The notes: generated from the letters alone by a model not told the origin. Positions 28,453 through 45,409 are shown, counted from the stretch's first letter. The stretch is 64,000 nt of DNA from an uncultured Gemmatimonadota bacterium (GCA_951812955.1 OX638340.1:32001-96000), one strand, 5' to 3'. Translations and numbers: made by a program.

Positions 28453-28895
28453 GCGGTCTCAGGAATAGATTGGGCGGCGGTGCTGGCAGTCCGCTCGATT
28501 GTGCAGAAAATGCGGGGATAGACGCGCTTGAGGAAAGCAGTTTTTGACCTGGCCGGAATTTGGGGTTGTAATCGAAAGCATTCGCAGATCAAGAATCTCA
28601 TTACGGACCATGTTTGAAATAGATGCGTTACGTCGAGTATAACCGTACAGAAGCTATCTTGCGCAAAAAATTAAATAAAATACATCTAAGTTAAAAATAT
28701 TTGTTACGTATTATTCATTTATCGGATATATTGCTTGACATAGCCTAATTGTCACCGGCATAAGTATATATGAAACCCATGCATGTCGTGTTCCGGTCCG
28801 CTCCGCGCTGCGGTACAGACCGGATTTCGGAACTGCAAGAGATCTAATATCCTGTGGTTGGCGTGACGGGACATGAGCAGCGCGAGCGAGTCATC

Positions 28896-29369
28896 ATGAA
28901 TAAACATCAGAGAAGGAAGTTAACGGACAGGTTCGTGTTTGCCGTGGAACAGCTGAATCGCCAGATGTCCGGCGGGCATTGGGTAAAACTGCGGACAATG
29001 AACCTGAATGTTCACCAGGTCAACACGCTTCTGGTACTGAACCATTACGGTCCGCTGTGCATGAGCGCGATTGCCGGGCTGTTGGGCAGTACGCAGTCAC
29101 ACACCACGAACGTTGTGCGTAAACTGGTCGGCAAGAAGTACATGAAGCGAAAATCGGACCCGAATGATCGAAGAGTCGTGATCGGTGAAATCACAGACCT
29201 GGGTAAGCAAGCCGCGAATCGGTACCAGGATATCATCAGGCAACGAGCGACCATGGTGTCCGAAAGATGGGACGTGGAGCAATTGGAATCCGTTGTCACC
29301 TCATTGGAGTTACTGGGGCGCGGCGATGGGGAATCACAGTACAAGCCCGATTCCGGCCAATCCGGATGA
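28896..29369 (+). CDS. MarR-family transcriptional regulator
   Basis: Winged-helix region LNVHQVNTLLVLNHYGPLCMSAIAGLLGSTQSHTTNVVRKLVGKKYMKRKSDPNDRR. A 350-nt AT-rich divergent intergenic region lies upstream. Confidence 0.75.
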   Translation: MNKHQRRKLTDRFVFAVEQLNRQMSGGHWVKLRTMNLNVHQVNTLLVLNHYGPLCMSAIAGLLGSTQSHTTNVVRKLVGKKYMKRKSDPNDRRVVIGEITDLGKQAANRYQDIIRQRATMVSERWDVEQLESVVTSLELLGRGDGESQYKPDSGQSG

Positions 29370-29437
29370 GCACGAAGCATGTCGAGGCCGACTGGTCATC
29401 CGGTTAGGTGAACGTGAACATAGCTCCGGGATTACTT

Positions 29438-31806: not shown

Positions 31807-32943
31807 ATGACAAGCACGCTTCCGGATCTCACGGCAAAACTCGTTTCGATTGACTCGACGAACCCCTCGCTGGTCTCGTCCGGAGCGGGCGAAGCGGAAA
31901 TTGCCGCCTTCGTAGCGGACTGGTGCCGGGATCAGGCCCTCGATGTTCGAATCATAGAGGCCGATGGGCGTCCGAACGTGGTTGCTGTCGCGAAGGGTAC
32001 GGGAGGCGGCCGTTCGATCATCCTGAATGGCCATCTCGATACGGTCGGAGTCGACGGCATGGACGATCCGTTCCGACCGAGGGTCGAAGGCGGCAGAATG
32101 TACGGCCGTGGCACAATCGACATGAAAGCGTCAATCGCCGCGATGATGGCCACTTTGGCCAGGGTGCGGAGAAACCCGTTGAGAGGGAACGTCGTCATGA
32201 CGGCTGTCGCCGACGAAGAGGCCTACAGCGTCGGCACCACCGCCGTGCTGGACAGCGGCGTGACGGCTGATGCCGCCATCGTGACCGAACCCACAAGCGG
32301 GGACGTCGTCGTCGCGCACAAGGGATTCTCATGGGCCGACGTCATCGCCCAGGGTCGCGCCGCCCATGGCTCCCTGCCGGCCGAGGGGCTCGATGCCATC
32401 ACGAAGATGGGTGCGTTCCTTCAAGGGCTTGAAAATCTCCAGGCCGAATTGCATAAACACCCGGGTGATCCTATGCTCGGACCGGGTTCGGTTCATGCTT
32501 CGACGATCAGCGGCGGCCGTGAAATGTCGAGTTATCCCGCGACCTGTCACCTCGGCGTGGAAAGGCGCACGATCCCGGGTGAGACCGCCCGGGACTTCAT
32601 TGCGGAGCTGGAAGGAATCGCCGAACGGTGCCGCCAGGCCGATCCGGGTTTCCAGGCCGAGATCACTCTGACCTTCGATCGACAGCCATTTTCGATTGAG
32701 GCAGATCATGAAATCGTCGAGCTGGTCAGGACGGTCGCTACGGAGACAACCGGTCGAGCGCCAGACATATGCGGGAAAGCCGGCTGGATGGATGCCGCGC
32801 TGCTGAGCGAGCGCTCGATTCCGACCGTTATCTACGGTCCGGCAGGAGGCGACTTCCACGGGGATAACGAATGGGTGGACCTGGCGTCGATCGAAGTGTG
32901 CGCCGATGTCCTCACAGATGTTGCCAGCGAGTTCTGTGCATGA
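31807..32943 (+). CDS. M20-family metallopeptidase / deacetylase (ArgE/DapE-like)
   Basis: GHLDTVGV, GTIDMKAS and the His/Asp/Glu metal-ligand pattern. Start at the internal ATG (MTSTLPDL). Confidence 0.8.
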   Translation: MTSTLPDLTAKLVSIDSTNPSLVSSGAGEAEIAAFVADWCRDQALDVRIIEADGRPNVVAVAKGTGGGRSIILNGHLDTVGVDGMDDPFRPRVEGGRMYGRGTIDMKASIAAMMATLARVRRNPLRGNVVMTAVADEEAYSVGTTAVLDSGVTADAAIVTEPTSGDVVVAHKGFSWADVIAQGRAAHGSLPAEGLDAITKMGAFLQGLENLQAELHKHPGDPMLGPGSVHASTISGGREMSSYPATCHLGVERRTIPGETARDFIAELEGIAERCRQADPGFQAEITLTFDRQPFSIEADHEIVELVRTVATETTGRAPDICGKAGWMDAALLSERSIPTVIYGPAGGDFHGDNEWVDLASIEVCADVLTDVASEFCA

Positions 32944-33622
32944 CCGGGAGCCCGGGGCGCGATGCACGAACCATATATCCAGATTAAACTCATCCAAAAA
33001 CATGGCGCCAAGATTCCGGGGTTTTATTGGGTACGGGTATGGTTCGGAACTGATCAGACTTGACAACAACTTAGTTCAGAGATTAAACTGATGTACAAAT
33101 AACTTATAGAACGCGTCCAGGCCGTTCTCGCCTGGGCACTTGTATTTACACCGTAACAGGATCAGGCGGAACGATGATTCGGACGGTAAGACGCGGTATC
33201 GGTACGGTCGTGATTTGGTTGATCACAACGCTGGTTCGATTGGGGAAACGGTTAATGCGGAATCGGAAACGAGGCGTTGCCTAGCGGAGGATGTGGCGCG
33301 GGCAGCACGGTAGGCAACGAGGGTCGAACCGGAAATCGGATGACGATTGGCAAACGGCCGGTAGTAACGTTAATCACCGATACGATATGCCAGCCGGGGG
33401 GGTGGTACAATACCCGGCGGCGATACAATAGCCGACTACCACATCGAGTATGACTCGCGAGATGGGACCACAAAAGGCGGAAGGATTCGCCGGTTGTGGT
33501 TTTTTTTGTGCGTGGATCCCGGCTCGGTACCTTAGTCATCAAACAGCGTACTTATTCCGAGAACTATACCGATGCTTCCGCTCAATAGATATATAGTCGA
33601 CATACAAAACCATATTGAGACT

Positions 33623-34693
33623 CTATTGACGAGCATTCGTCAGGTCTTCCAATTCATCTTCTTTGTAGGTGGCAGGTACCCATTCACGCGACAGGTATGG
33701 CTTGTCAATTTCGTCCAACTGTAATGCATCACGGTACCATTTGGGTAGGCCAGCTGTCGGCGGATTATCTGGATGGTAAATCGGCCGGTTCCATTGCGGC
33801 ATGCCGACTTCCGGCCAATGATCCTTGTCGTACTTCATAGGATATACCCACCAGAGTCCCAAATTAGATTCAACCAGGAAAATCTCGTCAGGCAAATAAG
33901 TACGCCCAGCAAGTAGAGTTGGTAACTGGTTCCCGATGAGGTCGAATCTCGTATGAGCTGCGTCCTGGCTTTCTAAAACCAGGACGGTTCGTGCTCCATC
34001 AGCACGACACTTCGCCAACTTTGGAAACTTGTCAGCAAAAGCTCTACGGATCCGTTCCGTCCGACAGCTTTCCAAGTCTTCGGGATAGTCAAGTACCGTT
34101 TGAACAAAGCCCGGCTTTCGTCCTGCCTTAATCCCATTCCGCCACCTCAGCAATTCGACTGTACAGTTTATACACGAGAGATCGTCTTTGATGCTATCGT
34201 CGGGAAAACAGTAAAGGCTGATTGGGATTCCATGGCAGTCGATAGGTAAAGACAGTAAGGTATTCCTCTCGTACATGGTCTGGGCACTGCTTAGAATCCA
34301 TTCGGCAAGGTTCTTCAAAGCCCTAACTCGTTTGACTTTCCCCCTGGGCAGACAAACATCTGTTGGTACTTGAAGCACGTAGTACATGGGATCTGGTAAC
34401 TGGCCGGCGAGGCTTTGTATCAAGTACTGTCTAATCTCCACGACGGTTAACTCAGTTTTAATATTGTTCTCAAAGGGTTCAATTATTGTGTGCTCAATCG
34501 CGTATTCTTGTTCACCCAATTTCATACGCAATTCCACTGGCGGCCCTACTCGATCACTCTCAGGATGACGTATTTCAGATCGTTTCTTCCGAGTGCGTCT
34601 TTCCATAGTCTTCACAACCGCGTCGCACGCCTTGCCCTCGTTTTTAGGTACGATTACGTGCGGTTTACTGTATGGAGTCTCGTTATTCTTCAT
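33623..34693 (-). CDS. Hypothetical protein at the island edge
   Basis: 356 aa, low GC, no recognisable motifs. Standalone gene with intergenic regions of 450 nt or more on both sides. Confidence 0.4.
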   Translation of the reverse strand: MKNNETPYSKPHVIVPKNEGKACDAVVKTMERRTRKKRSEIRHPESDRVGPPVELRMKLGEQEYAIEHTIIEPFENNIKTELTVVEIRQYLIQSLAGQLPDPMYYVLQVPTDVCLPRGKVKRVRALKNLAEWILSSAQTMYERNTLLSLPIDCHGIPISLYCFPDDSIKDDLSCINCTVELLRWRNGIKAGRKPGFVQTVLDYPEDLESCRTERIRRAFADKFPKLAKCRADGARTVLVLESQDAAHTRFDLIGNQLPTLLAGRTYLPDEIFLVESNLGLWWVYPMKYDKDHWPEVGMPQWNRPIYHPDNPPTAGLPKWYRDALQLDEIDKPYLSREWVPATYKEDELEDLTNARQ

Positions 34694-35149
34694 CGTTTCC
34701 TAATCTAAATGTAATTAACGGAAAATCGCTGTTGATGGCTGAGTCAGACCCTTTCACCAGTCTTCCGATCCGGTAGCCTTCTGTAGCCTTCTACTGATTA
34801 CAACTTCCAAACCTAATCCAGGAGCCATGCGCCTTGTGGAGATTGCCCCTCTGCAGTAGGGCGGCAGGTCACGAAAGAATCCGTGGACCACTCCAGTAAG
34901 ATTTCACGTAGCATCGCCTACTCGCCCTGACTGTCAAATGCAACCTAGCCATCGGTAACACCAAGCGTGATTCACTAAAGACGGTAAGCCCATGAAGTCT
35001 TCACGGTTCAAAGAAACTCCGAATTCCCTTATCTACGGGTTTTAAAGGGTTATGTAGGGGAGGTGTTGGCAACTGCTAATGGATGTTTCAGAGGGTGGGA
35101 ATGCGGTGTTGAGGCAACTCATAATAGTCCTGGTGATATCTAATCCCCA

Positions 35150-35635
35150 TCACAAGTTGTTTGTACGTCGGAGTAATTTGGATGATACCCAACTCCATGC
35201 TTTCCAAACAAACGAGGTTTTAGTTAGTAAGCCTTGCTCTTTATCAGTCTCCATACGGTCATCGGAGTTGAAAAACCGGTTGATTTCCAATCTATGGTTA
35301 CTTCGCTCCTCAAGAATCTCACGTGTAGACCATCGGCGTGACCAATGAACTTTGTTATTTTCGATCCAATAATGTGATTGACACTCCTCACTCCAATTTC
35401 CCACAGAGGGCCGGAGACTTATAGATAACCCATTGTAAATAAACGCCCACCCAGTGGGATGTAACGGTGTGTTTATCTCGCTACCACACCCACATGCACA
35501 TTTATGGATTACAGTACGGTACTTCAGCGAAATGTAAATTCGACCGTCTTCTAAACGGTTGGGTACAACATCCGAGAAGACCGGGGTAAATTCAGTCGTT
35601 TTTGAAGACCGTTCTAATCGTTTTGTTTTGCACAC
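35150..35635 (-). CDS. Small Cys-rich (HKCACGCG) predicted metal-binding protein, last gene of the E1/Ubl operon
   Basis: 161 aa. Its start overlaps the E1 gene stop by about 22 nt. CxCxCx cluster plus two further Cys residues. Confidence 0.45.
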   Translation of the reverse strand: MCKTKRLERSSKTTEFTPVFSDVVPNRLEDGRIYISLKYRTVIHKCACGCGSEINTPLHPTGWAFIYNGLSISLRPSVGNWSEECQSHYWIENNKVHWSRRWSTREILEERSNHRLEINRFFNSDDRMETDKEQGLLTKTSFVWKAWSWVSSKLLRRTNNL

Positions 35636-36831
35636 TCGACGTAGTCCCGGTTTATTATCTTGTTTCCGTCCATTATATATCCGGAATCACCCTCATGAAC
35701 TAAGTCTTGAAATACACCTCGGATTTTCTTCCATTTTATTACTGCCAATGCTGCATTGAGGGCGTTTAGTTCTGCCAATTGTATGTTTCTTTCGTACTCT
35801 CCAACATCTCCTCCTGCCATATCGATACGATTCTTCTCTGTCACATGGCCCCTATTGCCCGGTTCACTAGTAGTCGTTCGGAGTATCCCGCCTAGTCTAT
35901 CTCCTTCACGATAAATCCCCATCCCGGTATCAATACAAACGCTCTCGGCATCTTCGCAAATCCTAAATATAGATTGTTTTATGGCATGGCCATCAATACA
36001 CAGGAAAACTGTATCGTGTCCTTTTAACTCATTAACGTTTTCCTCCACAATCTTAGTGGGATGTGCAACAATACCGCGACGCATACGACTGTAGCGTTCG
36101 AAATGAAACTCTGATTTGATGGGGCCTCCTTCCAATTCTTCAACCGCTACTGCTCCCGGTGCTCGAAATGAGTTGTGCTGAAGAAAACGGTCATCGTCAT
36201 ACAGATGGATCTCTTTAACCCATGTCTTAGCAACATAGTCGAGAACGTAAGCCCCGGTCCCACCTAAACCAACAATTGCTACAGTCTCCCCTTCCAATCT
36301 CGAAGATATATCTGTTGTATTTTGACGGGCTGACGCTGTTTCCATAAACGCGAATACATTCGAATTGCTCTCGGATTTCGCGACTTTCCACTTCTGCGCC
36401 GACGTTGACGAGTCGATTTTCCTAGCTTCTCGCGTTATGATTTCAATATAGGTTCTTACTTTGTGTTCATAATCTATGTACCGCCCGCCTTCCGGCTTGG
36501 CTGAAAACATATAGGTTAACTTTAGACCATTGCTCAGAATCTGGTTGTGGCCGCTTTCACCCAGAACCTCAAGCTTCTGTGAATTCCCGTCATACGGAAA
36601 TTCTCCTGTCCAATAGGCCACGTGGTCACCTGGTTGACTAGTTCTCTCGCCTCTGAGGTCAAGTTGCATTACTAATGTTGCCTCTGCAATTCCTCCAACA
36701 CTGGTAACATAAGGCACATCTTGTATTAGAAGGTAGCCATCTATAAATCGGATTGTATATCCGGATTCCTCTATGCGTTTCAGATCCGTATTACGAGCGA
36801 TCAGTGCGTGTGACATTGAATACTGTCCCAT
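35614..36831 (-). CDS. E1-like ThiF/MoeB-family adenylyltransferase with a cysteine-free N-terminal domain of about 190 aa (possible E2/UEV-like)
   Basis: ThiF Rossmann motif VAIVGLGGTGAYVLDYVAKTWVKEIHLYDDD. The N-terminal half contains no Cys. Confidence 0.7.
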   Translation of the reverse strand: MGQYSMSHALIARNTDLKRIEESGYTIRFIDGYLLIQDVPYVTSVGGIAEATLVMQLDLRGERTSQPGDHVAYWTGEFPYDGNSQKLEVLGESGHNQILSNGLKLTYMFSAKPEGGRYIDYEHKVRTYIEIITREARKIDSSTSAQKWKVAKSESNSNVFAFMETASARQNTTDISSRLEGETVAIVGLGGTGAYVLDYVAKTWVKEIHLYDDDRFLQHNSFRAPGAVAVEELEGGPIKSEFHFERYSRMRRGIVAHPTKIVEENVNELKGHDTVFLCIDGHAIKQSIFRICEDAESVCIDTGMGIYREGDRLGGILRTTTSEPGNRGHVTEKNRIDMAGGDVGEYERNIQLAELNALNAALAVIKWKKIRGVFQDLVHEGDSGYIMDGNKIINRDYVECAKQND

Positions 36832-37060
36832 CCTTTATCTTCACATTTTCGCCTTCGCTCAAACCACCTTCTTGTTCACGTCCACCACCTTCATAAAACA
36901 GCACTGTGTAACTAATTAAAGCGCCACGACCACCATCCGGGTAAGCTAAATCCACTATTTCGTCAAAAGTCACTTCGTCATGGTCTACGGTGTACGGACG
37001 TGCATTGATTATGATATCAAAACCCTTGTTCTCTAGACTTTGCTGAGGTTCTTTTTCCAT
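36791..37060 (-). CDS. Small beta-grasp ubiquitin-like protein, multiubiquitin-family-like
   Basis: About 89 aa from the internal ATG (MEKEPQQ). Pattern FDIIINARPYTV..VTFDEIVDLA...ENVKIKDGTVFNVTRTDRS resembles the Multi_ubiq family. Its 3' end overlaps the E1 start. Confidence 0.45.
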   Translation of the reverse strand: MEKEPQQSLENKGFDIIINARPYTVDHDEVTFDEIVDLAYPDGGRGALISYTVLFYEGGGREQEGGLSEGENVKIKDGTVFNVTRTDRS

Positions 37061-37089
37061 ATTAATGGCTTCCGCCTCCTTATCGGGAT

Positions 37090-37629
37090 TCAGGCTATGT
37101 CCCTGATGCCCAATGTCAACCCTCCTGAGCGAACGAATTCCCTCCATAGAGGTGACAACAATTGAGCTGCAACTGGAGCTTCACGAGAAGAAAGTATAAT
37201 TTGTAATTCTCTCCTTTCATCTAAAGGTGCCTCTTTCCATATATTGTACAAATCCCAGCAGTTTCCGTCCGTCAAAATACCGTACCTTACCCCGACCTCA
37301 GTACAGTATGTCAACATCTGAGTGCGGTGTGTGTTGAGATCCTCGTTCAGTTTTTTTGCCTCGACTAGAACCAGTGGCTTTCTATCTTCTCCAAGTAATG
37401 CGTAGTCAACACGCTGATTCGCTTGATTTCCTGTACGGAATTCAACTTCTACATGCTCTACGATGCTAACGTCCCAAGCAAGGGCTTTCAATACCGGATC
37501 CACTAATACATTCCTTGTCCTTATCTCATTTTTCTGGAGGTATTCTCCGTGTTTTACTATTACCTCACGTGCTCGTTGTAGCGTGCTTACCAAGGGTTCT
37601 AACAAATCAGTCATAAACTCCCTCACCAC
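37090..37629 (-). CDS. PD-(D/E)XK restriction-endonuclease-like protein (HsdR N-terminal-domain-like), first gene of the operon
   Basis: 179 aa. RVDYALLGEDRKPLVLVEAKKL gives the D...EAK catalytic motif, followed by QMLTY...GILTDG. Confidence 0.6.
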   Translation of the reverse strand: MVREFMTDLLEPLVSTLQRAREVIVKHGEYLQKNEIRTRNVLVDPVLKALAWDVSIVEHVEVEFRTGNQANQRVDYALLGEDRKPLVLVEAKKLNEDLNTHRTQMLTYCTEVGVRYGILTDGNCWDLYNIWKEAPLDERRELQIILSSREAPVAAQLLSPLWREFVRSGGLTLGIRDIA

Positions 37630-37982
37630 TAAGTGAGCGATTCCCCAGTTGAACTTCTCTACTATAATATACGGCTAGCGGATCTGTACATATTACTTAA
37701 CGTATGATTCGTATGGAACTCTGTCAAATAGATTTCAACTTGAATACAATGTCATTGCTGAATAGATCGTAGCCATATCTCATCTACACCATTGAGTAGC
37801 ATATTGGATTACGCGCGGCGGTTTGGTAATATCGCGCATTCAGGTAGTTGGCGATGCACTTGGCACGCCGCACGGTCCCTGCAGATACGCCACAGAGCCA
37901 ACTCAGGCATGCACGAGTCATTTAACATCAGCCCTAGAAAATGCCCTTGACATCATATGATTTATGAGTCATGTTATGATGT

Positions 37983-38351
37983 ATGAAATGGGAAGTCGAT
38001 TTCCATCCGGCGTTTGATCCCGAGTTTGCCGCCATGGCACTGAAGGTGCAGGACGAACTGCTTACACAAGCAAAGCTCTTGGAGGAGTTCGGACCAACAT
38101 TAGGTCGTCCGCGGGTGGATACGCTAAATGGTTCGCGGCATGCTAATATGAAGGAACTTCGTTTTACTATGACTGGCGGAGTCTGGCGGGTCGCATTTGC
38201 TTTCGACCCCGAACGTAAGGCCATGCTACTGGTTGCCGGCGATAAATCGGGAGTCGGTGAACAACGGTTCTACCAGCAACTGATCAGGAAGGCGGATCAC
38301 CGCTTCGATCTACATCTTGAACTGTTGAAAGCTGAGAGGAGGCCAAGATGA
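37983..38351 (+). CDS. Type II toxin, RelE/HigB-like (phage Gp49-like addiction-module killer)
   Basis: 122 aa. KELRFTMTGGVWRVAFAFDPERKAMLLVAGDK matches the HigB/Gp49 family pattern. Confidence 0.7.
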   Translation: MKWEVDFHPAFDPEFAAMALKVQDELLTQAKLLEEFGPTLGRPRVDTLNGSRHANMKELRFTMTGGVWRVAFAFDPERKAMLLVAGDKSGVGEQRFYQQLIRKADHRFDLHLELLKAERRPR

Positions 38352-38698
38352 GTACGTTGACGGACAGAATGGACAAGCTGTCCCCGTCCCGACGGAAGAA
38401 GGTAGAAGAACGGGCCAGGGCGTTGATCGCCGAAGAAATGTCGCTACGGGACTTGCGCAAGGCTCGAAAGCAGACGCAGATGCGGGTCGCCGAGAAGCTC
38501 GGGATCAATCAGGAAAACGTGTCCCGCCTTGAACAGCGCAGTGATCTCTTGATTTCCACCCTCAGCGGCTATGTCGAGGCGATGGGGGGTAAACTGAGTC
38601 TGGTGGCGGAGTTTCCGGACCGGCCGCCAGTGGCGCTGACTGGCATTGCGGCACTCGACGACCTTTTGGAGCGGCCTGCAGAATCTCGTACCGGATGA
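38348..38698 (+). CDS. HTH (XRE-family) antitoxin, HigA-like
   Basis: 116 aa. HTH region MSLRDLRKARKQTQMRVAEKLGINQENVSRLEQ. 4-nt ATGA overlap with the toxin gene. Confidence 0.7.
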   Translation: MSTLTDRMDKLSPSRRKKVEERARALIAEEMSLRDLRKARKQTQMRVAEKLGINQENVSRLEQRSDLLISTLSGYVEAMGGKLSLVAEFPDRPPVALTGIAALDDLLERPAESRTG

Positions 38699-38964
38699 AG
38701 AGAGGATCGCGATATGGTCGCAGGCGGGTCGCTAAACGTCGAAAACACACCGGTTCCCGGGTGTCGCGAATCTCAGATTTGGGATATATAACTACAGTGA
38801 GGCGGGACCGGCCTTGGCCTTAGTGGCAAAACGCCTACGATCGATCAGTTCGCATTCCACGCTTGTGAAGATTCTCTTGCACAGCACGTTGTCATAGTAG
38901 TCGTTTACCGAGCCCATAGATGGCCAGATGCCAGCCGTGCAAACCGGTGCCCGTCGGAGCGAAC

Positions 38965-40140
38965 TCATCCACTAGGCGTTCGTCCACCGACCTCCGTCGA
39001 GATTTGTAGAATATACATCAGTGACGGATCGGATTTGAGGAGAATGGCCCGCAGCTGTTCGTCGGTTAGCTTTGTCTCCAATTCGTGGACCCGGTTGAAA
39101 AACTCGATCAGCTTCACCAGTGCTTTGGTGTCTTGGATCACGAATTCAGACAGCGGATCGTTGTACAACTCCCGACAGACGTACAGTACCCTCGCTCGAC
39201 GGGTTGGCTTGCCCTCATGTAGCAGATCCTTCTGATTAGCTAGGCTCAGAATCCATGCAGTAACTAGATCGTCGGGGGCTAATCGTCGGAGCAAATGGTT
39301 CCACAGCTCCCTGAGGGAGGTCAGAATGTGCCGTGCCCGGTCGGCACTGTTTCCATTCAGGGCATCTCGAGCGCCGATGTATGGCCCAGCGAGACTTGGA
39401 TCGACCTGTTGCAGCAGAATGATGCAGTCGGATGTTTCTAACTCTGCCTCGGCGACAAACTGGAATTCCGTTTCGGCCTCTTCTTCGTCCCGTTCACCCC
39501 AGGGGCGAAGAGTTTTGAGCGCGAAGCTGGTAGTGTAGATTTCACGAGTGGCGCCTGGCAAAACGAAAGCAGGTAAGCGCGTAATGTCCGAGACCTCCCG
39601 CAGTGAACCGGCCAAACTTCCATATGAGGCAGCCACCTGGGCAATCGAACTCTCCAGCCCTGAAATGGCGGGCATCTTGATTTGGAATTGACTCCCTATG
39701 GCCTTGAAATCGATGTTCGCCATGAGTCGTTCCGTGGCGATCAATTGCAAAGAAGTATCGCCCAGGGCCAACTTAGCGGATGCTTGAAGCTGGAAAAGTT
39801 GGGAAACTCCCTGTTGAAGAAGATTCGACTGGTCAAGCCAGGATTCATGAGTGGTATGCAGACTCTCGGCAATCCAGTTAGAAGCGGTAGTCTGTTTGAT
39901 CACATCATGCCAGTGTTGATTGGCGTTGGCGATCTCTTTAATCCCGGCCACTGCTTCAGGTATTTCGAGGGCACGACTGATTTCCATTTGATGGAGACGG
40001 AATGGTTCTATCGTGCGTTCTAACTGTTCTATAACGCCTAGGTAGGATGGCTTGGCCAAACGGTTGGAAGCCTCCATGTCCTGACGGAGTTTGCCGATGG
40101 CGGATTTTGCGGACATCAGATCTTCGGAGAGAATATCCAT
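38965..40140 (-). CDS. Hypothetical protein, third gene downstream of SIR2-HerA
   Basis: 391 aa soluble protein with no recognised motifs. 83 nt downstream of herA on the same strand. Confidence 0.45.
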   Translation of the reverse strand: MDILSEDLMSAKSAIGKLRQDMEASNRLAKPSYLGVIEQLERTIEPFRLHQMEISRALEIPEAVAGIKEIANANQHWHDVIKQTTASNWIAESLHTTHESWLDQSNLLQQGVSQLFQLQASAKLALGDTSLQLIATERLMANIDFKAIGSQFQIKMPAISGLESSIAQVAASYGSLAGSLREVSDITRLPAFVLPGATREIYTTSFALKTLRPWGERDEEEAETEFQFVAEAELETSDCIILLQQVDPSLAGPYIGARDALNGNSADRARHILTSLRELWNHLLRRLAPDDLVTAWILSLANQKDLLHEGKPTRRARVLYVCRELYNDPLSEFVIQDTKALVKLIEFFNRVHELETKLTDEQLRAILLKSDPSLMYILQISTEVGGRTPSG

Positions 40141-40223
40141 ATTTTGATGTTAGTCCCGGAGTTGTCAAATTGCAAGGCTGTGTGGATGTTTGGGTATGCT
40201 GGTACCTTCAACCTCAATTGAAA

Positions 40224-41915
40224 TCATCGGCGCTGATATCTCCAACGCTTAACAACATCTTGAATTTCCGAGTCAGGAGTTGCATCGTTTTGCCACCCCT
40301 TATCGAAGTCAATGTCATTTGATTTCGGTAGCTGATCAGGATTTAAATCACGTATTAGGATGCGCGACGGCAACATTGCAGCTTGGCCAACGAAAATTGC
40401 CTCTTGCCTCCGTAAACCAGAAAGCATCTTTGTCAGACCAGACATCGAATCTGGTAGAATGGATCGAACATGCTCCCTGTCGGCGTCATTGGTGATTCGC
40501 ATAACAATCCAGCTATTGCATTGTGAAAGAACCGTTGCCTCAACTTCGCTTGGGCGCTGGGATACCAACAGGAGCCCTACACCATACTTTCGACCTTCCT
40601 TAGCAACACGCCTGATTGCTTCTTGAGCAGCCTCATATTGCGCTTCGCCCCGATTTGGAACGTAGCGATGAGCTTCTTCACATACCAGTAAAACTGGGTC
40701 AGATTCGCGCTCTGATTGGGTTTGCCAAATCTTCAGATTGAATAAAGTTCGAGCAATTACCGCACTTGATACACCGGCTACTTCATTGGGGACACCGGAC
40801 AGATCTACTATTCTTGGTTGAGACCCATCCCCGATAAGTTGCTTGATAACAGTAAGAAAAGGATCGTTATTTTCCCATTCTGACATCATGAATCGGAGTC
40901 GAGCATCGGTCATTAAGACTTCGAGTTTTTGGAGTATCGAGTTATGAGAATCTTGTTTGCTGAGCGCAGTTGGCTTATCCGCTTCAATCTTTTCTATAAG
41001 CCTCGATAACTTGTATGGTACGGGGGAATCAACAGTTATGAGATTGACATCAAGACCTAGCTGATGCGCACCTTCTTCGCGGGCGTAGATTAAGGCTCTC
41101 TTTACGATGTTAGCTTGTGAGGTCGCAACAAATTCAGTTCTTCCGATCAACAAGGCAACCGTCTCTTGAAAGTTCAAGAGCCAGTATGGAAGTGTTAGTG
41201 TTCCGTCATCAGAGGAAAGTTTAGTATGATCAGTAAATGCGCTGCCGTATTCACCATGGGGGTCGAGTATAATAACCCTGGGCTTCCATTTCGTATATGA
41301 TCTAGTGTCACCTCTATCAAGAATACTGTGAATGATAGCTGCGACCGTACCTGACTTGCCAGCGCCAGTGGAGCCGAGAACGGCTGTGTGTTTACCAAGT
41401 AGTTCATTCAAATCTGCAAAACATGGGGTCCCGCCTGAACCTACATGCTGCCCGAGCTGAACAACGGCACTTTTCGCTTTCCCGTAAATAAAACGCAATT
41501 CAGCTTTTGGAGTCAGATAGACAGTTTGCTGTGGGAGTGGATAGGTTGATACCCCACGTTCAAAAAAAAGCTTCCATTCACTAGATGTCCCATGAATCCA
41601 TTCGCCTTCGCCGAACAGGTCTGCTTCGACGATTCTTTCATCCGAAGATGATGCTGACACCAATCCTCGTTCTGCTTGAAATTCTGATTTCATCCTTAGT
41701 CGGCCGACCAACGCGTAGACGGTTTGACGCCCGAAATGGACTTTGACAATGGAACCAAATTGTCCGATGGGATAGGTTTCTCCCGCATACACACGCGAGA
41801 GTTCAGAAAGAGTCGGATTTAACTCGGCAACAAGGTGAGATCCATCAACTTCAATTATCTTGCCGATTGCCAGATTCTCAATTGGCTCATTGGGATTGCG
41901 AGTCGAAACACTCAT
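40224..41915 (-). CDS. HerA/FtsK-like ATPase (DUF87) of a SIR2-HerA defence pair
   Basis: Walker A LGSTGAGKSGT. Walker B LLVCEEAHRY, followed by LLLVSQRPSEV. 563 aa. 4-nt start/stop overlap with the sir2 gene. Confidence 0.8.
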   Translation of the reverse strand: MSVSTRNPNEPIENLAIGKIIEVDGSHLVAELNPTLSELSRVYAGETYPIGQFGSIVKVHFGRQTVYALVGRLRMKSEFQAERGLVSASSSDERIVEADLFGEGEWIHGTSSEWKLFFERGVSTYPLPQQTVYLTPKAELRFIYGKAKSAVVQLGQHVGSGGTPCFADLNELLGKHTAVLGSTGAGKSGTVAAIIHSILDRGDTRSYTKWKPRVIILDPHGEYGSAFTDHTKLSSDDGTLTLPYWLLNFQETVALLIGRTEFVATSQANIVKRALIYAREEGAHQLGLDVNLITVDSPVPYKLSRLIEKIEADKPTALSKQDSHNSILQKLEVLMTDARLRFMMSEWENNDPFLTVIKQLIGDGSQPRIVDLSGVPNEVAGVSSAVIARTLFNLKIWQTQSERESDPVLLVCEEAHRYVPNRGEAQYEAAQEAIRRVAKEGRKYGVGLLLVSQRPSEVEATVLSQCNSWIVMRITNDADREHVRSILPDSMSGLTKMLSGLRRQEAIFVGQAAMLPSRILIRDLNPDQLPKSNDIDFDKGWQNDATPDSEIQDVVKRWRYQRR

Positions 41916-43072
41916 CTTTCACCTCCAAGCAGGCGGGTCAAGTTTTCAAATTTCCACCAAAGTAGGTCGGTGTCGGATGGTGCTTTTTTGCTGCCGTGAA
42001 AGAAGCCAAGATTAGCAAAAATAAGTACTTGCTCGGTTATGGAGTCATCATCATGCCATCTCTTAAGTAGGCCTTTTGGTTCATCATCAGAGGTAAACAC
42101 CACGACGGTAAGACGACCGTCAGATTCACGTAACGCCCGGTCGATTTCGAGATTGATGTGTGAATCACCAAAGCGGTACCCGCACGTAATCAGTATTTTT
42201 TGCGAACCTGAAACAGCCGTTAGTGCTTTCCGCCCATATTCTGCCAATTGAGCATAGGGGTCTCTTTGAGTTTCACGGTATTTGGTGGATGCTGGCCAAA
42301 TGAGAATCTTGTTTTTACCCCCGGATTGTACTTTGACATTACCGGAAACTCGGCGAGGGAGTGGATCACCATCGAACTCGCACCAGTTTATTGAACCGTG
42401 CAGTTTGAAGATCCTCGACGAGAGTCCATCACGCTCAAAATCCGCAGGATTCCACCATCCGGTGACTCCGCCTTCCAGACCATCTGAAAAGGAAACTCGC
42501 TCAAGCGCGAGTGCATCTTCAAGAAGCGTGTCGTAGTTGAGGCAGAGATAGTCCACACGATCAAAGTTGCCCGTTTTACCAGGCCGAATTGGGCGATGAA
42601 CCGCCTTTACGAATTTGCGATGAACCACTACATCGATTTGCTCGTCATTGTGCTCGATTATATTGGAAATGATACGCTTTATATCTTCTGCAGATTCCCT
42701 TAGTTGCTGGCCAGAATATCGATTGTCTTTGATAGTGATCTGGTCATCGGTTGCGCCTCGCTCCGCCCTTCTTTCAGCGATGGCCAGAAGGTCGATTATT
42801 TCACTAAGGTAGTCCTCAATATCTGGATCACTCGCACCGGTGAAACCTTCCTTAATTCCCTTGAGGATCTCTGTGGTATAGTCACTCAAAGCACCTATTT
42901 CCAGTACTTTAGTAGTTAGTTCTTCCATCAATGGTAAACCCGCGCATTTGCTACAACCTGCACCAATTAGGAACACTTTCCCATGCTGGACCATAAGTTC
43001 GTCTAGCGTATCATAAGCTTCAACTAATTGAGGGGTATCCCATATTGCGTCAAGATTGTCAGGTGCGCTCAT
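41912..43072 (-). CDS. SIR2-family (DHS-like NAD-binding) protein, putative NADase effector
   Basis: VFLIGAGCSKCAGLP (a sirtuin GAGxS-like motif) and KLHGSINW. 386 aa. Confidence 0.75.
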   Translation of the reverse strand: MSAPDNLDAIWDTPQLVEAYDTLDELMVQHGKVFLIGAGCSKCAGLPLMEELTTKVLEIGALSDYTTEILKGIKEGFTGASDPDIEDYLSEIIDLLAIAERRAERGATDDQITIKDNRYSGQQLRESAEDIKRIISNIIEHNDEQIDVVVHRKFVKAVHRPIRPGKTGNFDRVDYLCLNYDTLLEDALALERVSFSDGLEGGVTGWWNPADFERDGLSSRIFKLHGSINWCEFDGDPLPRRVSGNVKVQSGGKNKILIWPASTKYRETQRDPYAQLAEYGRKALTAVSGSQKILITCGYRFGDSHINLEIDRALRESDGRLTVVVFTSDDEPKGLLKRWHDDDSITEQVLIFANLGFFHGSKKAPSDTDLLWWKFENLTRLLGGER

Positions 43073-43405
43073 ATTAACCCTTTCTCATTTTATCATACTC
43101 CAATTTCCTGACTTCATTGCTATTCATGTGTCGCTATGCCATTAACTTCAACAACACGTCGTCTAGACCAAACCGATCATTCAAGGATTTAGCTATCCGA
43201 ACGAGTTTCGGACTTGGTCCGGAGTAAATAGAGAATCAGTCGCCCAAAGTGAGAGAATGTGTGACGGACAGGGAAAATCGACGATGTGGAACGGTTGTTC
43301 GAGAGGACATTAACAGACGCAATCTCTTAGAAACAAGTGCAAAAAACCCGTCATCCCCGAGAATGAGCCAGACCCTAGAGAGACGGGTTGTCTTTTTAGA
43401 ATTGA

Positions 43406-43766
43406 TGGAGGTGGGGGGAATCGAACCCCCGTCCGAAAGTGCCTAAGCGGAAACTTCTACATGCGTAGCCTGTTGTTTAATCTCGTTCCGGAGAACTCCA
43501 GCAGGCAGGATTTAACCGGAACCAGCCTCAGTTGAGTCTCGCCTGGCGCCCTGAGGCGCGACGCCCGGCCAGCCTGCTTTATCGACGCTTTTGACCATCC
43601 CGCAGGCGGGGCTGATCAAAAACGGGCCGGCCTAAGTTACCTTAGGCAGCCATTGCATACGAAGGTTCGTCTGCAGATAAATTGTTCCCAATGGTTTTAC
43701 GAGGTTATCGGGGACCTCGGCACGCGATTCCCGCCGCATCCACTCCCGTCGAATCCTTTCACCCCC
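43406..43766 (-). ncRNA. ssrA: tmRNA (SsrA); the predicted tag reading frame encodes ADEPSYAMAA followed by TAA
   Basis: On the minus strand the 5' end reads GGGGGTGAAAGGATTCGACGGG and the 3' tRNA-like end reads TTTCGGACGGGGGTTCGATTCCCCCCACCTCCA. The internal frame is GCA GAC GAA CCT TCG TAT GCA ATG GCT GCC TAA. Confidence 0.85.
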
Positions 43767-43880
43767 ATGTCAAAGAACATAGGCCATTTGGGCGCTTCTG
43801 TCAAATTCGCCCGGCCGCGATGGTTCGGTTGCATCATGATACGGCAGCACCATGGTACGGCTGCATCGCGGTTTGGCCAG

Positions 43881-43953
<73 letters not shown>

Positions 43954-43959
43954 ATTCCA

Positions 43960-44032
43960 TGAGCGCGGAAGGAATCGAACCTTCGACCCACAGATTAAAA
44001 GTCTGTTGCTCTGCCAACTGAGCTACGCGCCC
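43960..44032 (-). tRNA. tRNA-Lys (anticodon TTT)
   Basis: Minus strand: GGGCGCGTAGCTCAGTTGGCAGAGCAACAGACTTTTAATCTGT...GGTTCGATTCCTTCCGCGCTCA. Confidence 0.85.
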
Positions 44033-44131
44033 TCGCAGGCGTAGCATAATAAGCGATTACACCTACTTCGTCAACCGATTTCCGGTTAGGACAGGATGGC
44101 CAATGAGCACGAACGCGGGGCCCGCGAAACC

Positions 44132-45409
44132 TTACATGAAAATGGTCGCGTCTCGATGCGAACCCACGGAAACGAGGTCCACTTTGGCCTTCACCAGTTC
44201 CGATATGCGCTCGATGTATGCCTGGGCTTCCTTCGGCAATCCGTCCCAGGTCCGTATGTGGCCGGTGGGCCGATCCCAGCCCTCCATCTCCTCGTATACG
44301 GGCTCGCATCGGCGCAGGACGTTCGCGTCGTTGGGCAGATGAGGGACCACCTCGCCGTTCAGCCTGTATCCGACGCACAGCCTCAGCGTCTGGAGCGTGT
44401 CCAAGGTGTCGAGGCGGGCGAGGGCCAGCCGGTCGATGCCGTTCACCATGACCGCGTAGCGAACCACCATGGCGTCGAACCAGCCGCACCGGCGCGGGCG
44501 GCCCGTCGTAGCGCCGAATTCACCCGCCATGCGCCGGAATTCGTCTCCCCACCTGGAAGGAAACTCAGTGGGGAAGGGGCCGTTGCCTACCCGGGTGGTG
44601 TAGGCCTTGGCCACGCCGATGACTTCGTCGATGCGGGTGGGACCGACGCCGGCGCCCATGCAGGCGGCACCCGTGGTCGTGTTGGAGGACGTGACGTAGG
44701 GATAGGTCCCGTGGTCCACGTCCAGCAGGGTGCCCTGGCTGCCCTCGAACAAGATCTCCTTGTCGGCATCAATAGCGTCGTTGAGATATTCCGACGTATT
44801 CGTCACGAATGGACCGATCCGGTCAGCAAATGCCATGTACTCCTCGATGATCCGGTCGGCGTCGAGCGTCTCGGCCTGGTATATGGCGTCGAGAATCCTG
44901 TTCGCCTCGTCGATATTGCGCTGAAGCTTCTCGCGAAGCACGGACCGATCGTGCAGGTCGCCGATGCGAATACCCTTGCGGGCAGCCTTGTCCGCATAAG
45001 CGGGACCGATACCCCTTCCCGTGGTACCGATCCGCTCTTCCTCCTGCAACTGTTCTTCCCCGACCCGGTCGATCAGCTTGTGGTACGGCATGATAACGTG
45101 GGCGTTGTGGCTGATGAAAAGGCGTCCCTCCACGTCGATGCCGTGAGACCCGAGCATCTCGATCTCTTCCATCAGCGCTTCCGGATCGATCACCGTGCCG
45201 TTGCCGATGACGCAGGCCTTGTCCTGCCGGAGGATGCCGACTGGTATGAGGTGGAGGATGTACTCCTGGTCTCCGATCTGAACGGTGTGCCCGGCATTGG
45301 CCCCGCCCTGGAACCGCACGACGATATCGGCCCGCTCACTCAGGAAATCGACGATCTTTCCCTTGCCTTCATCTCCCCACGCTGCGCCTACGAGTATGCG
45401 AACGGCCAT
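44132..45409 (-). CDS. purA: Adenylosuccinate synthetase
   Basis: N-terminal GAAWGDEGKGKIVD P-loop, GGANAGHTV, and 425 aa length. Confidence 0.9.
   Translation of the reverse strand: MAVRILVGAAWGDEGKGKIVDFLSERADIVVRFQGGANAGHTVQIGDQEYILHLIPVGILRQDKACVIGNGTVIDPEALMEEIEMLGSHGIDVEGRLFISHNAHVIMPYHKLIDRVGEEQLQEEERIGTTGRGIGPAYADKAARKGIRIGDLHDRSVLREKLQRNIDEANRILDAIYQAETLDADRIIEEYMAFADRIGPFVTNTSEYLNDAIDADKEILFEGSQGTLLDVDHGTYPYVTSSNTTTGAACMGAGVGPTRIDEVIGVAKAYTTRVGNGPFPTEFPSRWGDEFRRMAGEFGATTGRPRRCGWFDAMVVRYAVMVNGIDRLALARLDTLDTLQTLRLCVGYRLNGEVVPHLPNDANVLRRCEPVYEEMEGWDRPTGHIRTWDGLPKEAQAYIERISELVKAKVDLVSVGSHRDATIFM

What the first reader, a model, noticed from the sequence alone, without database searches (positions are those of the whole stretch)
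33050..43766. Roughly 10 kb low-GC defence island abutting the 3' end of tmRNA with no integrase
Seen: GC content falls sharply between about 33.05 kb (after the M20 peptidase gene) and 43.4 kb, where the 3' tRNA-like end of minus-strand ssrA lies, followed by two tRNA-Lys genes. The island carries the E1/Ubl operon, a HigBA pair, SIR2-HerA and two orphan genes. Established: the ssrA 3' end and tRNA genes are classic integration sites for genomic islands and prophages. Not seen: any tyrosine or serine recombinase, transposase, or a direct repeat of the ssrA 3' end at the left boundary (33.0-33.6 kb inspected by eye). Inference: an old or degraded integrative element, or a defence island whose mobility genes lie elsewhere.
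Basis: partly seen in the sequence, partly recalled or inferred. Interest (0 to 1): 0.6.

Follow-up and report, generated by a model that had tools for sequence, protein, structure and literature searches.

The report
Defence-gene hotspot beside the tmRNA gene
The low-GC stretch is real, horizontally acquired DNA filling a variable slot between the tmRNA gene and a peptidase gene, a patchwork of anti-phage gene cassettes with no mobility genes of its own; this kind of ssrA-side defence hotspot is already known from other bacteria.

Summary
Window 32956-43402 (10.4 kb) has 47.8% GC against 61.8% in the rest of the window. It abuts the 3' end of minus-strand tmRNA (43403-43766). It carries SIR2-HerA, a pP_pnuc_1 nuclease gene, HigBA, a Type II Bub (Ubl/E2-E1/peptidase) operon with a PD-(D/E)XK gene, and an uncharacterised nuclease-like gene. 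I found no integrase, no transposase and no repeat of the ssrA 3' end.

Nine related loci keep the same core flanks (purA-tRNA-Lys x2-tmRNA and M20 peptidase). Each holds something different between them: BREX, Upx, Dsr2, PDC-S09, IS elements, a prophage with a tyrosine integrase 163 bp after tmRNA, a decayed copy of that integrase, or about 320 bp.

The island is a mosaic of at least four or five cassettes of different age, not one decayed element. The 4.2-kb SIR2-HerA-pP_pnuc_1 cassette is 80-82% identical in DNA to copies in a gammaproteobacterium and next to a relaxase in a metagenome contig. One relative carries a displaced 16-nt ssrA end in front of the same cassette, so site-specific insertion at ssrA does happen in this clade.

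Verdict: a new example of a known kind, an ssrA-adjacent core defence hotspot. Interest is modest.

The parts
31807..32943 (+). M20/ArgE-DapE family peptidase gene, the left core flank of the hotspot
   Evidence: Pfam Peptidase_M20 and M20_dimer. The 378-aa form matches orthologues in relatives at 86-96%. Homology to the most distant relatives ends at 32955-32958.
33060..33510 (+). Oldest island layer: promoter-like site (33060-33089), conserved 36-aa basic/hydrophobic ORF (33174-33284), 18-nt repeats, hairpin plus T-run (33468-33510)
   Evidence: Shared with L082, L087 and partly L084, but absent from L088, L089 and L126. Frame and stop are kept; 13 synonymous and 8 nonsynonymous codon differences. 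Promoter-like site. No Rfam match.
33623..34693 (-). orf356: member of a large uncharacterised family, predicted PD-(D/E)XK-like nuclease fold
35150..35635 (-). BubE (DUF6527 serine peptidase) of a Type II Bub operon
   Evidence: Pfam DUF6527, E 1e-22. Family role taken from PMC11601596.
35614..36831 (-). BubBD, an E2-like (DUF6791) domain fused to a ThiF-type E1 adenylation domain
   Evidence: Pfam DUF6791 and ThiF. NCBIfam PRK06153.1-4 at 434 bits, above its cutoff. Weak PADLOC E1-E2 hits.
36791..37147 (-). BubA, ubiquitin-like protein (Multi_ubiq)
   Evidence: Pfam Multi_ubiq, E 4e-14.
37090..37629 (-). PD-(D/E)XK / HSDR_N small nuclease-like gene at the head of the Bub operon
   Evidence: Pfam HSDR_N and HSDR_N_2. 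PHROG endonuclease, E 3e-16. A 45% homologue in L082/L083 lies immediately upstream of an IS3 element and may be cut short by it.
37983..38698 (+). HigB-like (Gp49) toxin and HTH antitoxin pair, an older resident of the site
   Evidence: Pfam Gp49 and HTH families. GC3 0.53 and 0.70. Deletion remnants of both genes at the same site in L084, at 93-97% DNA identity.
38995..43176 (-). 4.2-kb SIR2-HerA-pP_pnuc_1 cassette (SIR2 41912-43072, HerA 40224-41915, pP_pnuc_1 protein 38965-40140)
   Evidence: PADLOC HerA E 2e-138 and SIR2 E 2e-68. Pfam pP_pnuc_1. HerA is related to the HerA of solved SIR2-HerA complexes. The same three genes occur in L126, L127 and L128. DNA identity is 90% to L126, 82% to L127 and 80% to L128, with the same end points in L127 and L128.
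43205..43402 (-). ssrA-proximal spacer with terminator hairpin (about 43340-43390)
   Evidence: Shared with L081 and L126, and partly with L087. The other relatives have two other, unrelated versions that start at the tmRNA 3' end.
43403..43766 (-). tmRNA (ssrA), the right anchor of the hotspot
   Evidence: ARAGORN and Rfam RF00023 at 196 bits. About 99% identical in six relatives.
43880..44032 (-). tRNA-Lys(ctt) and tRNA-Lys(ttt)
   Evidence: Conserved in all relatives examined.
44132..45409 (-). purA, the right core flank
   Evidence: Pfam Adenylsucc_synt, E 2e-181. Used to find the relatives.

Best explanation
The segment is the current occupant of a conserved chromosomal defence hotspot. 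The hotspot lies between the 3' end of ssrA (tmRNA) and the M20 peptidase gene in an uncultured lineage whose nearest named relatives are Gemmatimonadota and Latescibacterota MAGs.

The occupant is a mosaic of cassettes acquired separately:
- a small-ORF module;
- a nuclease-like orphan (orf356);
- a PD-(D/E)XK gene plus a Type II Bub operon;
- HigBA;
- SIR2-HerA-pP_pnuc_1.

It has no recombinase or att repeat and is not mobile by itself now.

Shown here: the site turns over between close relatives, its occupants are mostly anti-phage systems, and ssrA-targeting integrase elements insert there and then decay.

Inferred: the window's content arose in three ways. One is such insertions followed by loss of the integrase and att. 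The second is cassette-level gain and loss inside the island. The third is exchange of the region between lineages by homologous recombination through the conserved flanks.

Functionally it is a stack of independent immune modules. These are NAD+ depletion and DNA nicking by SIR2-HerA, Ubl conjugation by Bub, toxin-antitoxin and nucleases. Those functions are inferred from family membership only.
For: Composition: GC, GC3 and tetranucleotide outlier.

The flanks are conserved and the content differs in every relative:
- L081 holds BREX, with BrxF and BrxC.
- L082/L083 hold IS3, IS256, orf356 and a PD-(D/E)XK homologue.
- L084 holds a PDC-S09 gene plus HigBA scars.
- L085 holds a prophage with integrase and AlpA.
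- L087 holds Upx.
- L088 has only about 320 bp between M20 and tmRNA.
- L089 holds an integrase remnant.
- L126 holds Dsr2 and more, followed by SIR2-HerA-pP_pnuc_1 and orf356.

Site-specific use of ssrA: several relatives diverge from the window exactly at the tmRNA 3' end. L126 has a displaced CCCCTAACCTCCATCA (14 of 16 matches, last 10 exact) in front of the same spacer and cassette; chance expectation is 0.01 per locus.

Mosaic structure: modules differ in GC3 and are shared with different relatives.

Horizontal transfer: HerA homologues of 89-91% aa identity are named from Methylomarinum, Kiritimatiellia, Mariprofundus and Cupriavidus, while purA is at most about 72% identical to any named taxon. 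The cassette is 80-82% identical in DNA to L127 and L128, and L128 has NikA and a relaxase beside it. Between the window and L126, the cassette is 90% identical but the core flank only 82%.
Against: - No att scar or integrase fragment survives in the window, so an integrase origin for any of its modules is inferred from relatives only.
- I could not read the far ends of the L085 prophage or of the L126 upstream element, so the att core is known from one displaced copy only.
- L088, the nearly empty site, carries about 100 nt resembling the L085 element's tmRNA-proximal end. A pristine empty site was therefore not seen.
- The defence function of every module rests on homology.
- The relatives are metagenome assemblies, although the junctions recur in independent assemblies.
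Confidence: 0.8

Rival explanations
1. A single integrative element, a satellite or island, once inserted into the ssrA 3' end and later lost its integrase and distal att repeat. The whole 10.4 kb is one decayed unit.
For: It sits next to ssrA, is foreign in composition, and relatives show integrase elements and integrase decay at this very site.
Against: - GC3 ranges from 0.40 to 0.70 between modules.
- HigBA remnants occur in L084 without the other modules.
- orf356 occurs in L082 and L126 without Bub.
- SIR2-HerA-pP_pnuc_1 has the same discrete ends in two unrelated contexts and starts about 230 bp from ssrA, beyond a spacer shared with the BREX-bearing L081.
Confidence: 0.08
2. Turnover at this site is driven only by homologous recombination through the conserved flanks after transduction or transformation. 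Integrases played no part in building the window's island.
For: - No att or integrase scar in the window.
- The island is more similar than the flank between the window and L126.
- The tmRNA is about 99% conserved and offers a recombination anchor.
- This route has been proposed for Pseudomonas core defence hotspots (PMC10250203).
Against: Several relatives break from the window exactly at the tmRNA 3' end. One carries a displaced ssrA end in front of the same spacer and cassette. An intact and a decayed integrase sit at the site. Site-specific events therefore clearly contribute in the clade.
Confidence: 0.1
3. The low-GC block is a metagenome assembly or binning chimera.
For: The source is an uncultured organism, and the composition changes abruptly.
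Against: - A HerA 100% identical to the window's is on record on a 3.8-Mb contig.
- The ssrA-spacer-SIR2 junction recurs in L126.
- The left junction region recurs in L082 and L087.
- orf356 lies next to M20 in L126. All of these are independent assemblies.
Confidence: 0.02

Closest known systems
Core defence hotspot cDHS2 of Pseudomonas aeruginosa at ssrA (Johnson et al. 2023, PMC10250203) and E. coli hotspot #9 at the tmRNA locus (Hochhauser et al. 2023, PMC10121019)
   Same: Both are slots bounded by the tmRNA gene and core genes. Their content varies between strains, is mostly anti-phage systems and has low GC. They are sometimes filled by prophages or other mobile elements and sometimes by islands with no recognisable mobility genes.
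   Different: The phylum differs (an uncultured Gemmatimonadota/Latescibacterota-like lineage) and so does the other flank (M20 peptidase). The sample here is nine related loci, not hundreds to thousands.
tmRNA/tRNA-integrated genomic islands and prophages (Williams 2002, 2003; cited in PMC10121019 and recalled from my own knowledge)
   Same: The position is at the ssrA 3' end. A relative (L085) has the classic layout with the integrase next to ssrA. L126 shows a tandem arrangement with a displaced ssrA end.
   Different: The window's island has no integrase and no ssrA direct repeat, and it is not a single unit.
SIR2-HerA anti-phage system (PMC11472057, PMC11514289, PMC13434337)
   Same: Overlapping SIR2 and HerA genes. 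HerA is homologous to the HerA of solved SIR2-HerA complexes. Strong PADLOC matches.
   Different: A 387-391-aa pP_pnuc_1 protein gene follows HerA in all four contexts seen; it is split in one. The abstracts I saw describe or imply a two-gene system. HerA and SIR2 score below NCBIfam's equivalog cutoffs.
Type II Bub (6E.2/DUF6527) bacterial ubiquitination-like operon (PMC11601596)
   Same: BubA Ubl, BubBD E2-E1 fusion and BubE DUF6527 peptidase, as Pfam reads the genes.
   Different: The operon is headed by a small PD-(D/E)XK/HSDR_N gene rather than the CapW or CapH+CapP regulators noted in the paper. BubA has no C-terminal glycine as encoded.

Membership tests
ssrA-integrated genomic island / integrative element | Lies directly at the 3' end of the tmRNA gene | tested here: met
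   The tmRNA 3' end is at 43403 and low-GC DNA starts there. However, the first 200 bp are a spacer and terminator shared with L081 and L126.
ssrA-integrated genomic island / integrative element | Encodes a tyrosine (or serine) recombinase | tested here: not met
   No recombinase domain in any island or flank ORF tested. tblastn with the L085 integrase finds nothing in the window.
ssrA-integrated genomic island / integrative element | Direct repeat of the ssrA 3' segment at the distal boundary | tested here: not met
   No second copy by BLAST at word size 7, with a 30-mer or 20-mer at up to 3 mismatches, or with an 11-mer at up to 1 mismatch in the right orientation.
ssrA-integrated genomic island / integrative element | Absent or different in close relatives; foreign composition | tested here: met
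Core defence hotspot (cDHS-type) | The same core genes flank the site in related genomes | tested here: met
   purA-tRNA-Lys x2-tmRNA on one side in seven loci. M20 peptidase on the other side in L082, L084, L087, L088 and L126.
Core defence hotspot (cDHS-type) | Content differs between related genomes | tested here: met
   Every relative differs. Only orf356, HigBA scraps, the small-ORF module and, in L126, the SIR2-HerA cassette are shared.
Core defence hotspot (cDHS-type) | Occupants are enriched in anti-phage systems | tested here: met
   SIR2-HerA in the window. BREX, Upx, Dsr2 and PDC-S09 in relatives. Bub is a candidate immune operon according to PMC11601596.
Core defence hotspot (cDHS-type) | Diverse mobile elements land at the site in some genomes | tested here: met
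   A prophage with integrase in L085, IS3 and IS256 in L082, and an integrase remnant in L089.
SIR2-HerA defence system | Adjacent SIR2-domain and HerA (DUF87) ATPase genes | tested here: met
   The genes overlap by 4 nt at 41912-41915. PADLOC, Pfam and PDB homology.
SIR2-HerA defence system | Phage-triggered NADase and nuclease activity, protection from phage | not testable with these tools
   Needs experiments.
Type II Bub operon | BubA Ubl, BubBD E2-E1 fusion and BubE DUF6527 in one operon, without a JAB peptidase | tested here: met
   Multi_ubiq, DUF6791+ThiF and DUF6527 on consecutive minus-strand genes at 35150-37147. Definition from PMC11601596.
Type II Bub operon | Catalytic Tyr (E1 crossover loop), Ser (E2) and Ser-His dyad (BubE) conserved | not tested
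   I made no residue-level alignment to the published proteins.
HigBA-type toxin-antitoxin | Small Gp49/HigB-family toxin gene followed by an overlapping HTH antitoxin gene | tested here: met
   Gp49 E 2e-19. HTH families are all below Pfam's gathering scores, so the antitoxin call is weak. The genes overlap by 4 nt at 38348-38351.

The most novel reading that the evidence does not exclude
SIR2-HerA-pP_pnuc_1 is a distinct three-component subtype in which the pP_pnuc_1 protein is a working partner. It spreads between phyla as a self-contained 4.2-kb cassette with fixed ends and no mobility genes of its own. It drops into existing defence islands, here about 230 bp downstream of ssrA and elsewhere next to BREX, by a route that leaves no att scar.
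Probability: 0.3. Interest if true: 0.5.

Novelty: new member of a known kind. Interest (0 to 1): 0.3.

Why it matters
It shows that the ssrA-side defence hotspot described in Pseudomonas and E. coli also exists in a poorly known, uncultured lineage. Here the intermediate stages are visible side by side: an intact integrase element, a decayed integrase, a displaced ssrA end and integrase-free mosaics.

It gives exact cassette boundaries that could be used to mine this slot for new immune genes. Candidates are the orf356 family, the 36-aa ORF module and the unannotated genes in L087 and L126. It does not reveal a new kind of system.

Tried and rejected
- Exact look-ups of the window's M20 (411-aa ORF) and purA found nothing. 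For M20 the ORF submitted was longer than the 378-aa gene. For purA some relatives on record carry a longer 457-aa form, so a different start call is a possible cause that I did not check.
- The viral-contig scan with the 29-nt ssrA end gave 36 hits, mostly complete tmRNA genes of other organisms or phages. The motif is too conserved to mark att sites. The L085 integrase has no relative in the eight tmRNA-less hits.
- A 13-nt match of internal tmRNA sequence at 37444-37456 (E 0.09) and an 11-mer at 41309 on the wrong strand are chance-level.
- The 20-nt inverted repeat 33327-33346 / 44068-44087 looked like island-bounding repeats. One arm overlaps the promoter-like site of the tRNA-Lys cluster and the other arm is not conserved in relatives, so I treat it as chance.
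- The single-sequence AlphaFold model of orf356 was unusable at pLDDT 35. The alignment-based model worked.
- afdb50 was not available.
- Plasmid searches for the SIR2-HerA and Bub cassettes gave only weak 65-78% partial hits.
- No Rfam family matches 32940-33640.


Full report
**Observation**

Per-kb GC falls from 0.58-0.66 to 0.44-0.56 between 33 and 44 kb; one search gives a finer profile. The segment 32956-43402 (10,447 bp) is 47.8% GC and the rest of the window is 61.8%. Five-kb windows inside the segment lie 10-13 standard deviations below 44 host windows in GC, and about 20 sd away in tetranucleotide use. GC3 is 0.40-0.43 for SIR2, HerA and the Bub genes. It is 0.50 for orf356, 0.57 for the pP_pnuc_1 gene and 0.53/0.70 for HigB/HigA. 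Flank genes are at 0.70-0.83.

tmRNA is at 43403-43766 on the minus strand, followed by tRNA-Lys(ctt) and tRNA-Lys(ttt). purA (44132-45409, -) and an M20 peptidase gene (31807-32943, +) are the nearest core genes.

**Gene content**

In the tmRNA's orientation the genes run as follows:
- SIR2 (41912-43072) and HerA (40224-41915), which overlap.
- A 391-aa protein with a C-terminal pP_pnuc_1 domain (38965-40140).
- HigA/HigB on the other strand (37983-38698).
- A small PD-(D/E)XK/HSDR_N protein (37090-37629).
- BubA Multi_ubiq (36791-37147), BubBD DUF6791+ThiF (35614-36831) and BubE DUF6527 (35150-35635). This is the Type II Bub layout as defined in PMC11601596.
- A 356-aa orphan (33623-34693).
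- A short module with a 36-aa ORF (33060-33510).

**Absences**

No recombinase or transposase domain was found in the island ORFs or in the flank ORFs I tested, which are housekeeping genes: AddAB-like, cysteine desulfurase, DLH, MarR, gcvP, accBC and efp. tblastn with the integrase, AlpA, IS3 and IS256 proteins of relatives finds nothing in the island. No second copy of the ssrA 3' end exists in the window at any sensitivity tried.

**Relatives**

purA homologues of 93-99% identity exist on long metagenome contigs. Nearest named taxa are Latescibacteria and Gemmatimonadota MAGs, at about 70-72% for purA and 78-79% for M20.

Look-ups gave loci with the same purA-tRNA-Lys-tRNA-Lys-tmRNA arrangement. 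Between tmRNA and M20 their content differs:

| Locus | Content between tmRNA and M20 |
|---|---|
| L081 | BREX (BrxF, BrxC, PglX) |
| L082/L083 | Small genes, a 45% homologue of the PD-(D/E)XK gene, IS3, an orf356 orthologue, IS256 |
| L084 | A PDC-S09 nucleotidyltransferase gene and remnants of HigA and HigB |
| L085 | A prophage: tyrosine integrase 163 bp after tmRNA, AlpA, portal, protease |
| L087 | Upx and unknown genes |
| L088 | Only about 320 bp between M20 and tmRNA |
| L089 | A remnant of the L085-type integrase, residues 1-71 and 343-380 |
| L126 | Dsr2, DUF4238 and a 200-aa gene, then SIR2-HerA-pP_pnuc_1, a methyltransferase fragment, orf356, then M20 |

This is a hotspot with conserved flanks and mostly defence cargo.

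**Boundaries**

Against the more distant L088 and L126, homology stops at 32955-32958 on the left. On the right it stops at 43400 against L088; L126 does not include the tmRNA gene. Against the closer L082 and L087, the left break is at 33520-33528, just after the hairpin and T-run. That is also where L082 has its IS256.

On the right, L082, L083, L084 and L085 diverge from the window exactly at the tmRNA 3' end. L087 diverges at 43375 and L081 at 43205. Three unrelated versions of the sequence downstream of tmRNA exist, each starting at ...CCACCTCCA.

**Evidence for site-specific insertion in the clade**

L126 aligns with the window at 90% from 38801 up to 43422, that is, 20 nt into the tmRNA gene. 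Yet L126 has no tmRNA gene within the 8.5 kb of that locus that lie upstream of the match. The sequence there is CCCCTAACCTCCATCA against the tmRNA end CCCCCCACCTCCATCA: 14 of 16 matches, the last 10 exact. Chance expectation is 0.01 per locus.

The simplest reading is that a newer element, the Dsr2 block, inserted into the ssrA end and pushed the old ssrA end, spacer and SIR2-HerA block away. L085, with its intact integrase, and L089, with its decayed integrase, show the earlier and later stages of such events. L088's short spacer resembles the tmRNA-proximal end of the L085 element. It is therefore probably a scar rather than a pristine site.

**Mosaic nature**

Modules differ in GC3 and in their distribution among relatives:
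- The small-ORF module is in L082, L087 and L084 only.
- HigBA scraps are in L084 only.
- orf356 is in L082 and L126.
- A distant PD-(D/E)XK homologue is in L082/L083.
- The Bub genes are in none of the relatives.
- The SIR2-HerA cassette is in L126 only.

The cassette 43176-38995 matches Methylomarinum sp. Ch1-1 (L127, CP157743) at 82% and a metagenome contig (L128) at 80%, with the same end points. In both it follows a BREX-like block. In L128 it is followed by NikA and a relaxase/primase gene. HerA homologues of 89-91% aa identity are named from Kiritimatiellia, Mariprofundus and Cupriavidus. That is far closer than the host's housekeeping proteins are to those taxa.

Between the window and L126 the cassette is 90% identical, orf356 86% and the core flank 82%. 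The island was therefore exchanged, or acquired in parallel, after the lineages split.

**The orphans**

**Interpretation**

This is an ssrA-adjacent core defence hotspot, like cDHS2 of P. aeruginosa and hotspot #9 of E. coli. The window's occupant is a non-mobile patchwork. Its picture of one degraded element is not. The phenomenon is known, and the particular lineage and cassette combination are new examples. The most novel point left open is whether pP_pnuc_1 defines a three-gene SIR2-HerA subtype that moves as a fixed 4.2-kb cassette.

Noticed in passing
window 33060-33510 (+): A conserved 36-aa ORF (33174-33284, MIRTVRRGIGTVVIWLITTLVRLGKRLMRNRKRGVA) has a TTGACA-type promoter-like site upstream and a hairpin plus T-run downstream. 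Frame and stop are kept in L082, L087 and L084, with 13 synonymous and 8 nonsynonymous codon changes. An 18-nt unit GGYGRTACAATACCCGGC occurs 2x here, 3x in L082 and 1x in L087. It could be a small membrane peptide or toxin. There is no Rfam or PHROG match.
   Followed up: partly
window 33327-33346 and 44068-44087: A 20-nt inverted repeat (19 of 20) brackets the island plus tmRNA and the tRNAs. The right arm overlaps the promoter-like -35 of the tRNA-Lys cluster. The left arm is not conserved in L082 or L087. Probably chance.
   Followed up: partly
window 38965-43176; L126 8489-13119; L127 8744-12932; L128 6743-10928: SIR2-HerA is always followed by a pP_pnuc_1 protein gene (387-391 aa, split in L127). 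The 4.2-kb block has the same ends in a gammaproteobacterium and in a relaxase-bearing contig, at 80-82% DNA identity across phyla.
   Followed up: partly
window 37090-37629 (-); L082 14287-14676: A small PD-(D/E)XK/HSDR_N gene heads the Type II Bub operon, and its ORF overlaps the longest BubA ORF by 58 nt. L082/L083 carry a 45% homologue that lies immediately upstream of an IS3 element and may be cut short by it, with no Bub genes. It may be an effector partner of Bub.
   Followed up: no
window 36791-37147 (-): BubA as encoded ends ...NVTRTDRS with no C-terminal glycine. The first ATG may not be the true start; a second Met lies 29 codons in.
   Followed up: no
L084 12546-12710: The 122-aa 'gene' called here is an artefact that spans remnants of HigA (139 bp, 93%) and HigB (35 bp, 97%) joined to the small-ORF module. 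It is a deletion scar showing that HigBA once occupied the site in that lineage.
   Followed up: yes
L088 6778-7523; L126 19006-19751; L089 10001-11137: A second M20 peptidase copy lies beyond the cysteine desulfurase gene in the more distant relatives. It is intact in L089 and broken into two fragments in L088 and L126. In L089 the copy next to tmRNA is missing.
   Followed up: no
window 43403-43766 (-): ARAGORN predicts an unusually short tag peptide, EPSYAMAA, and predicts the same tag in all relatives. The genomic 3' end reads ...CCACCTCCATCA, so CCA is apparently not encoded.
   Followed up: no
window 28000-29400: A local GC dip (0.54) falls around a MarR-family regulator gene (28854-29369) between the AddB-like gene and the cysteine desulfurase gene. 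In L084 this stretch is replaced by other genes (AAT, PhyH).
   Followed up: no
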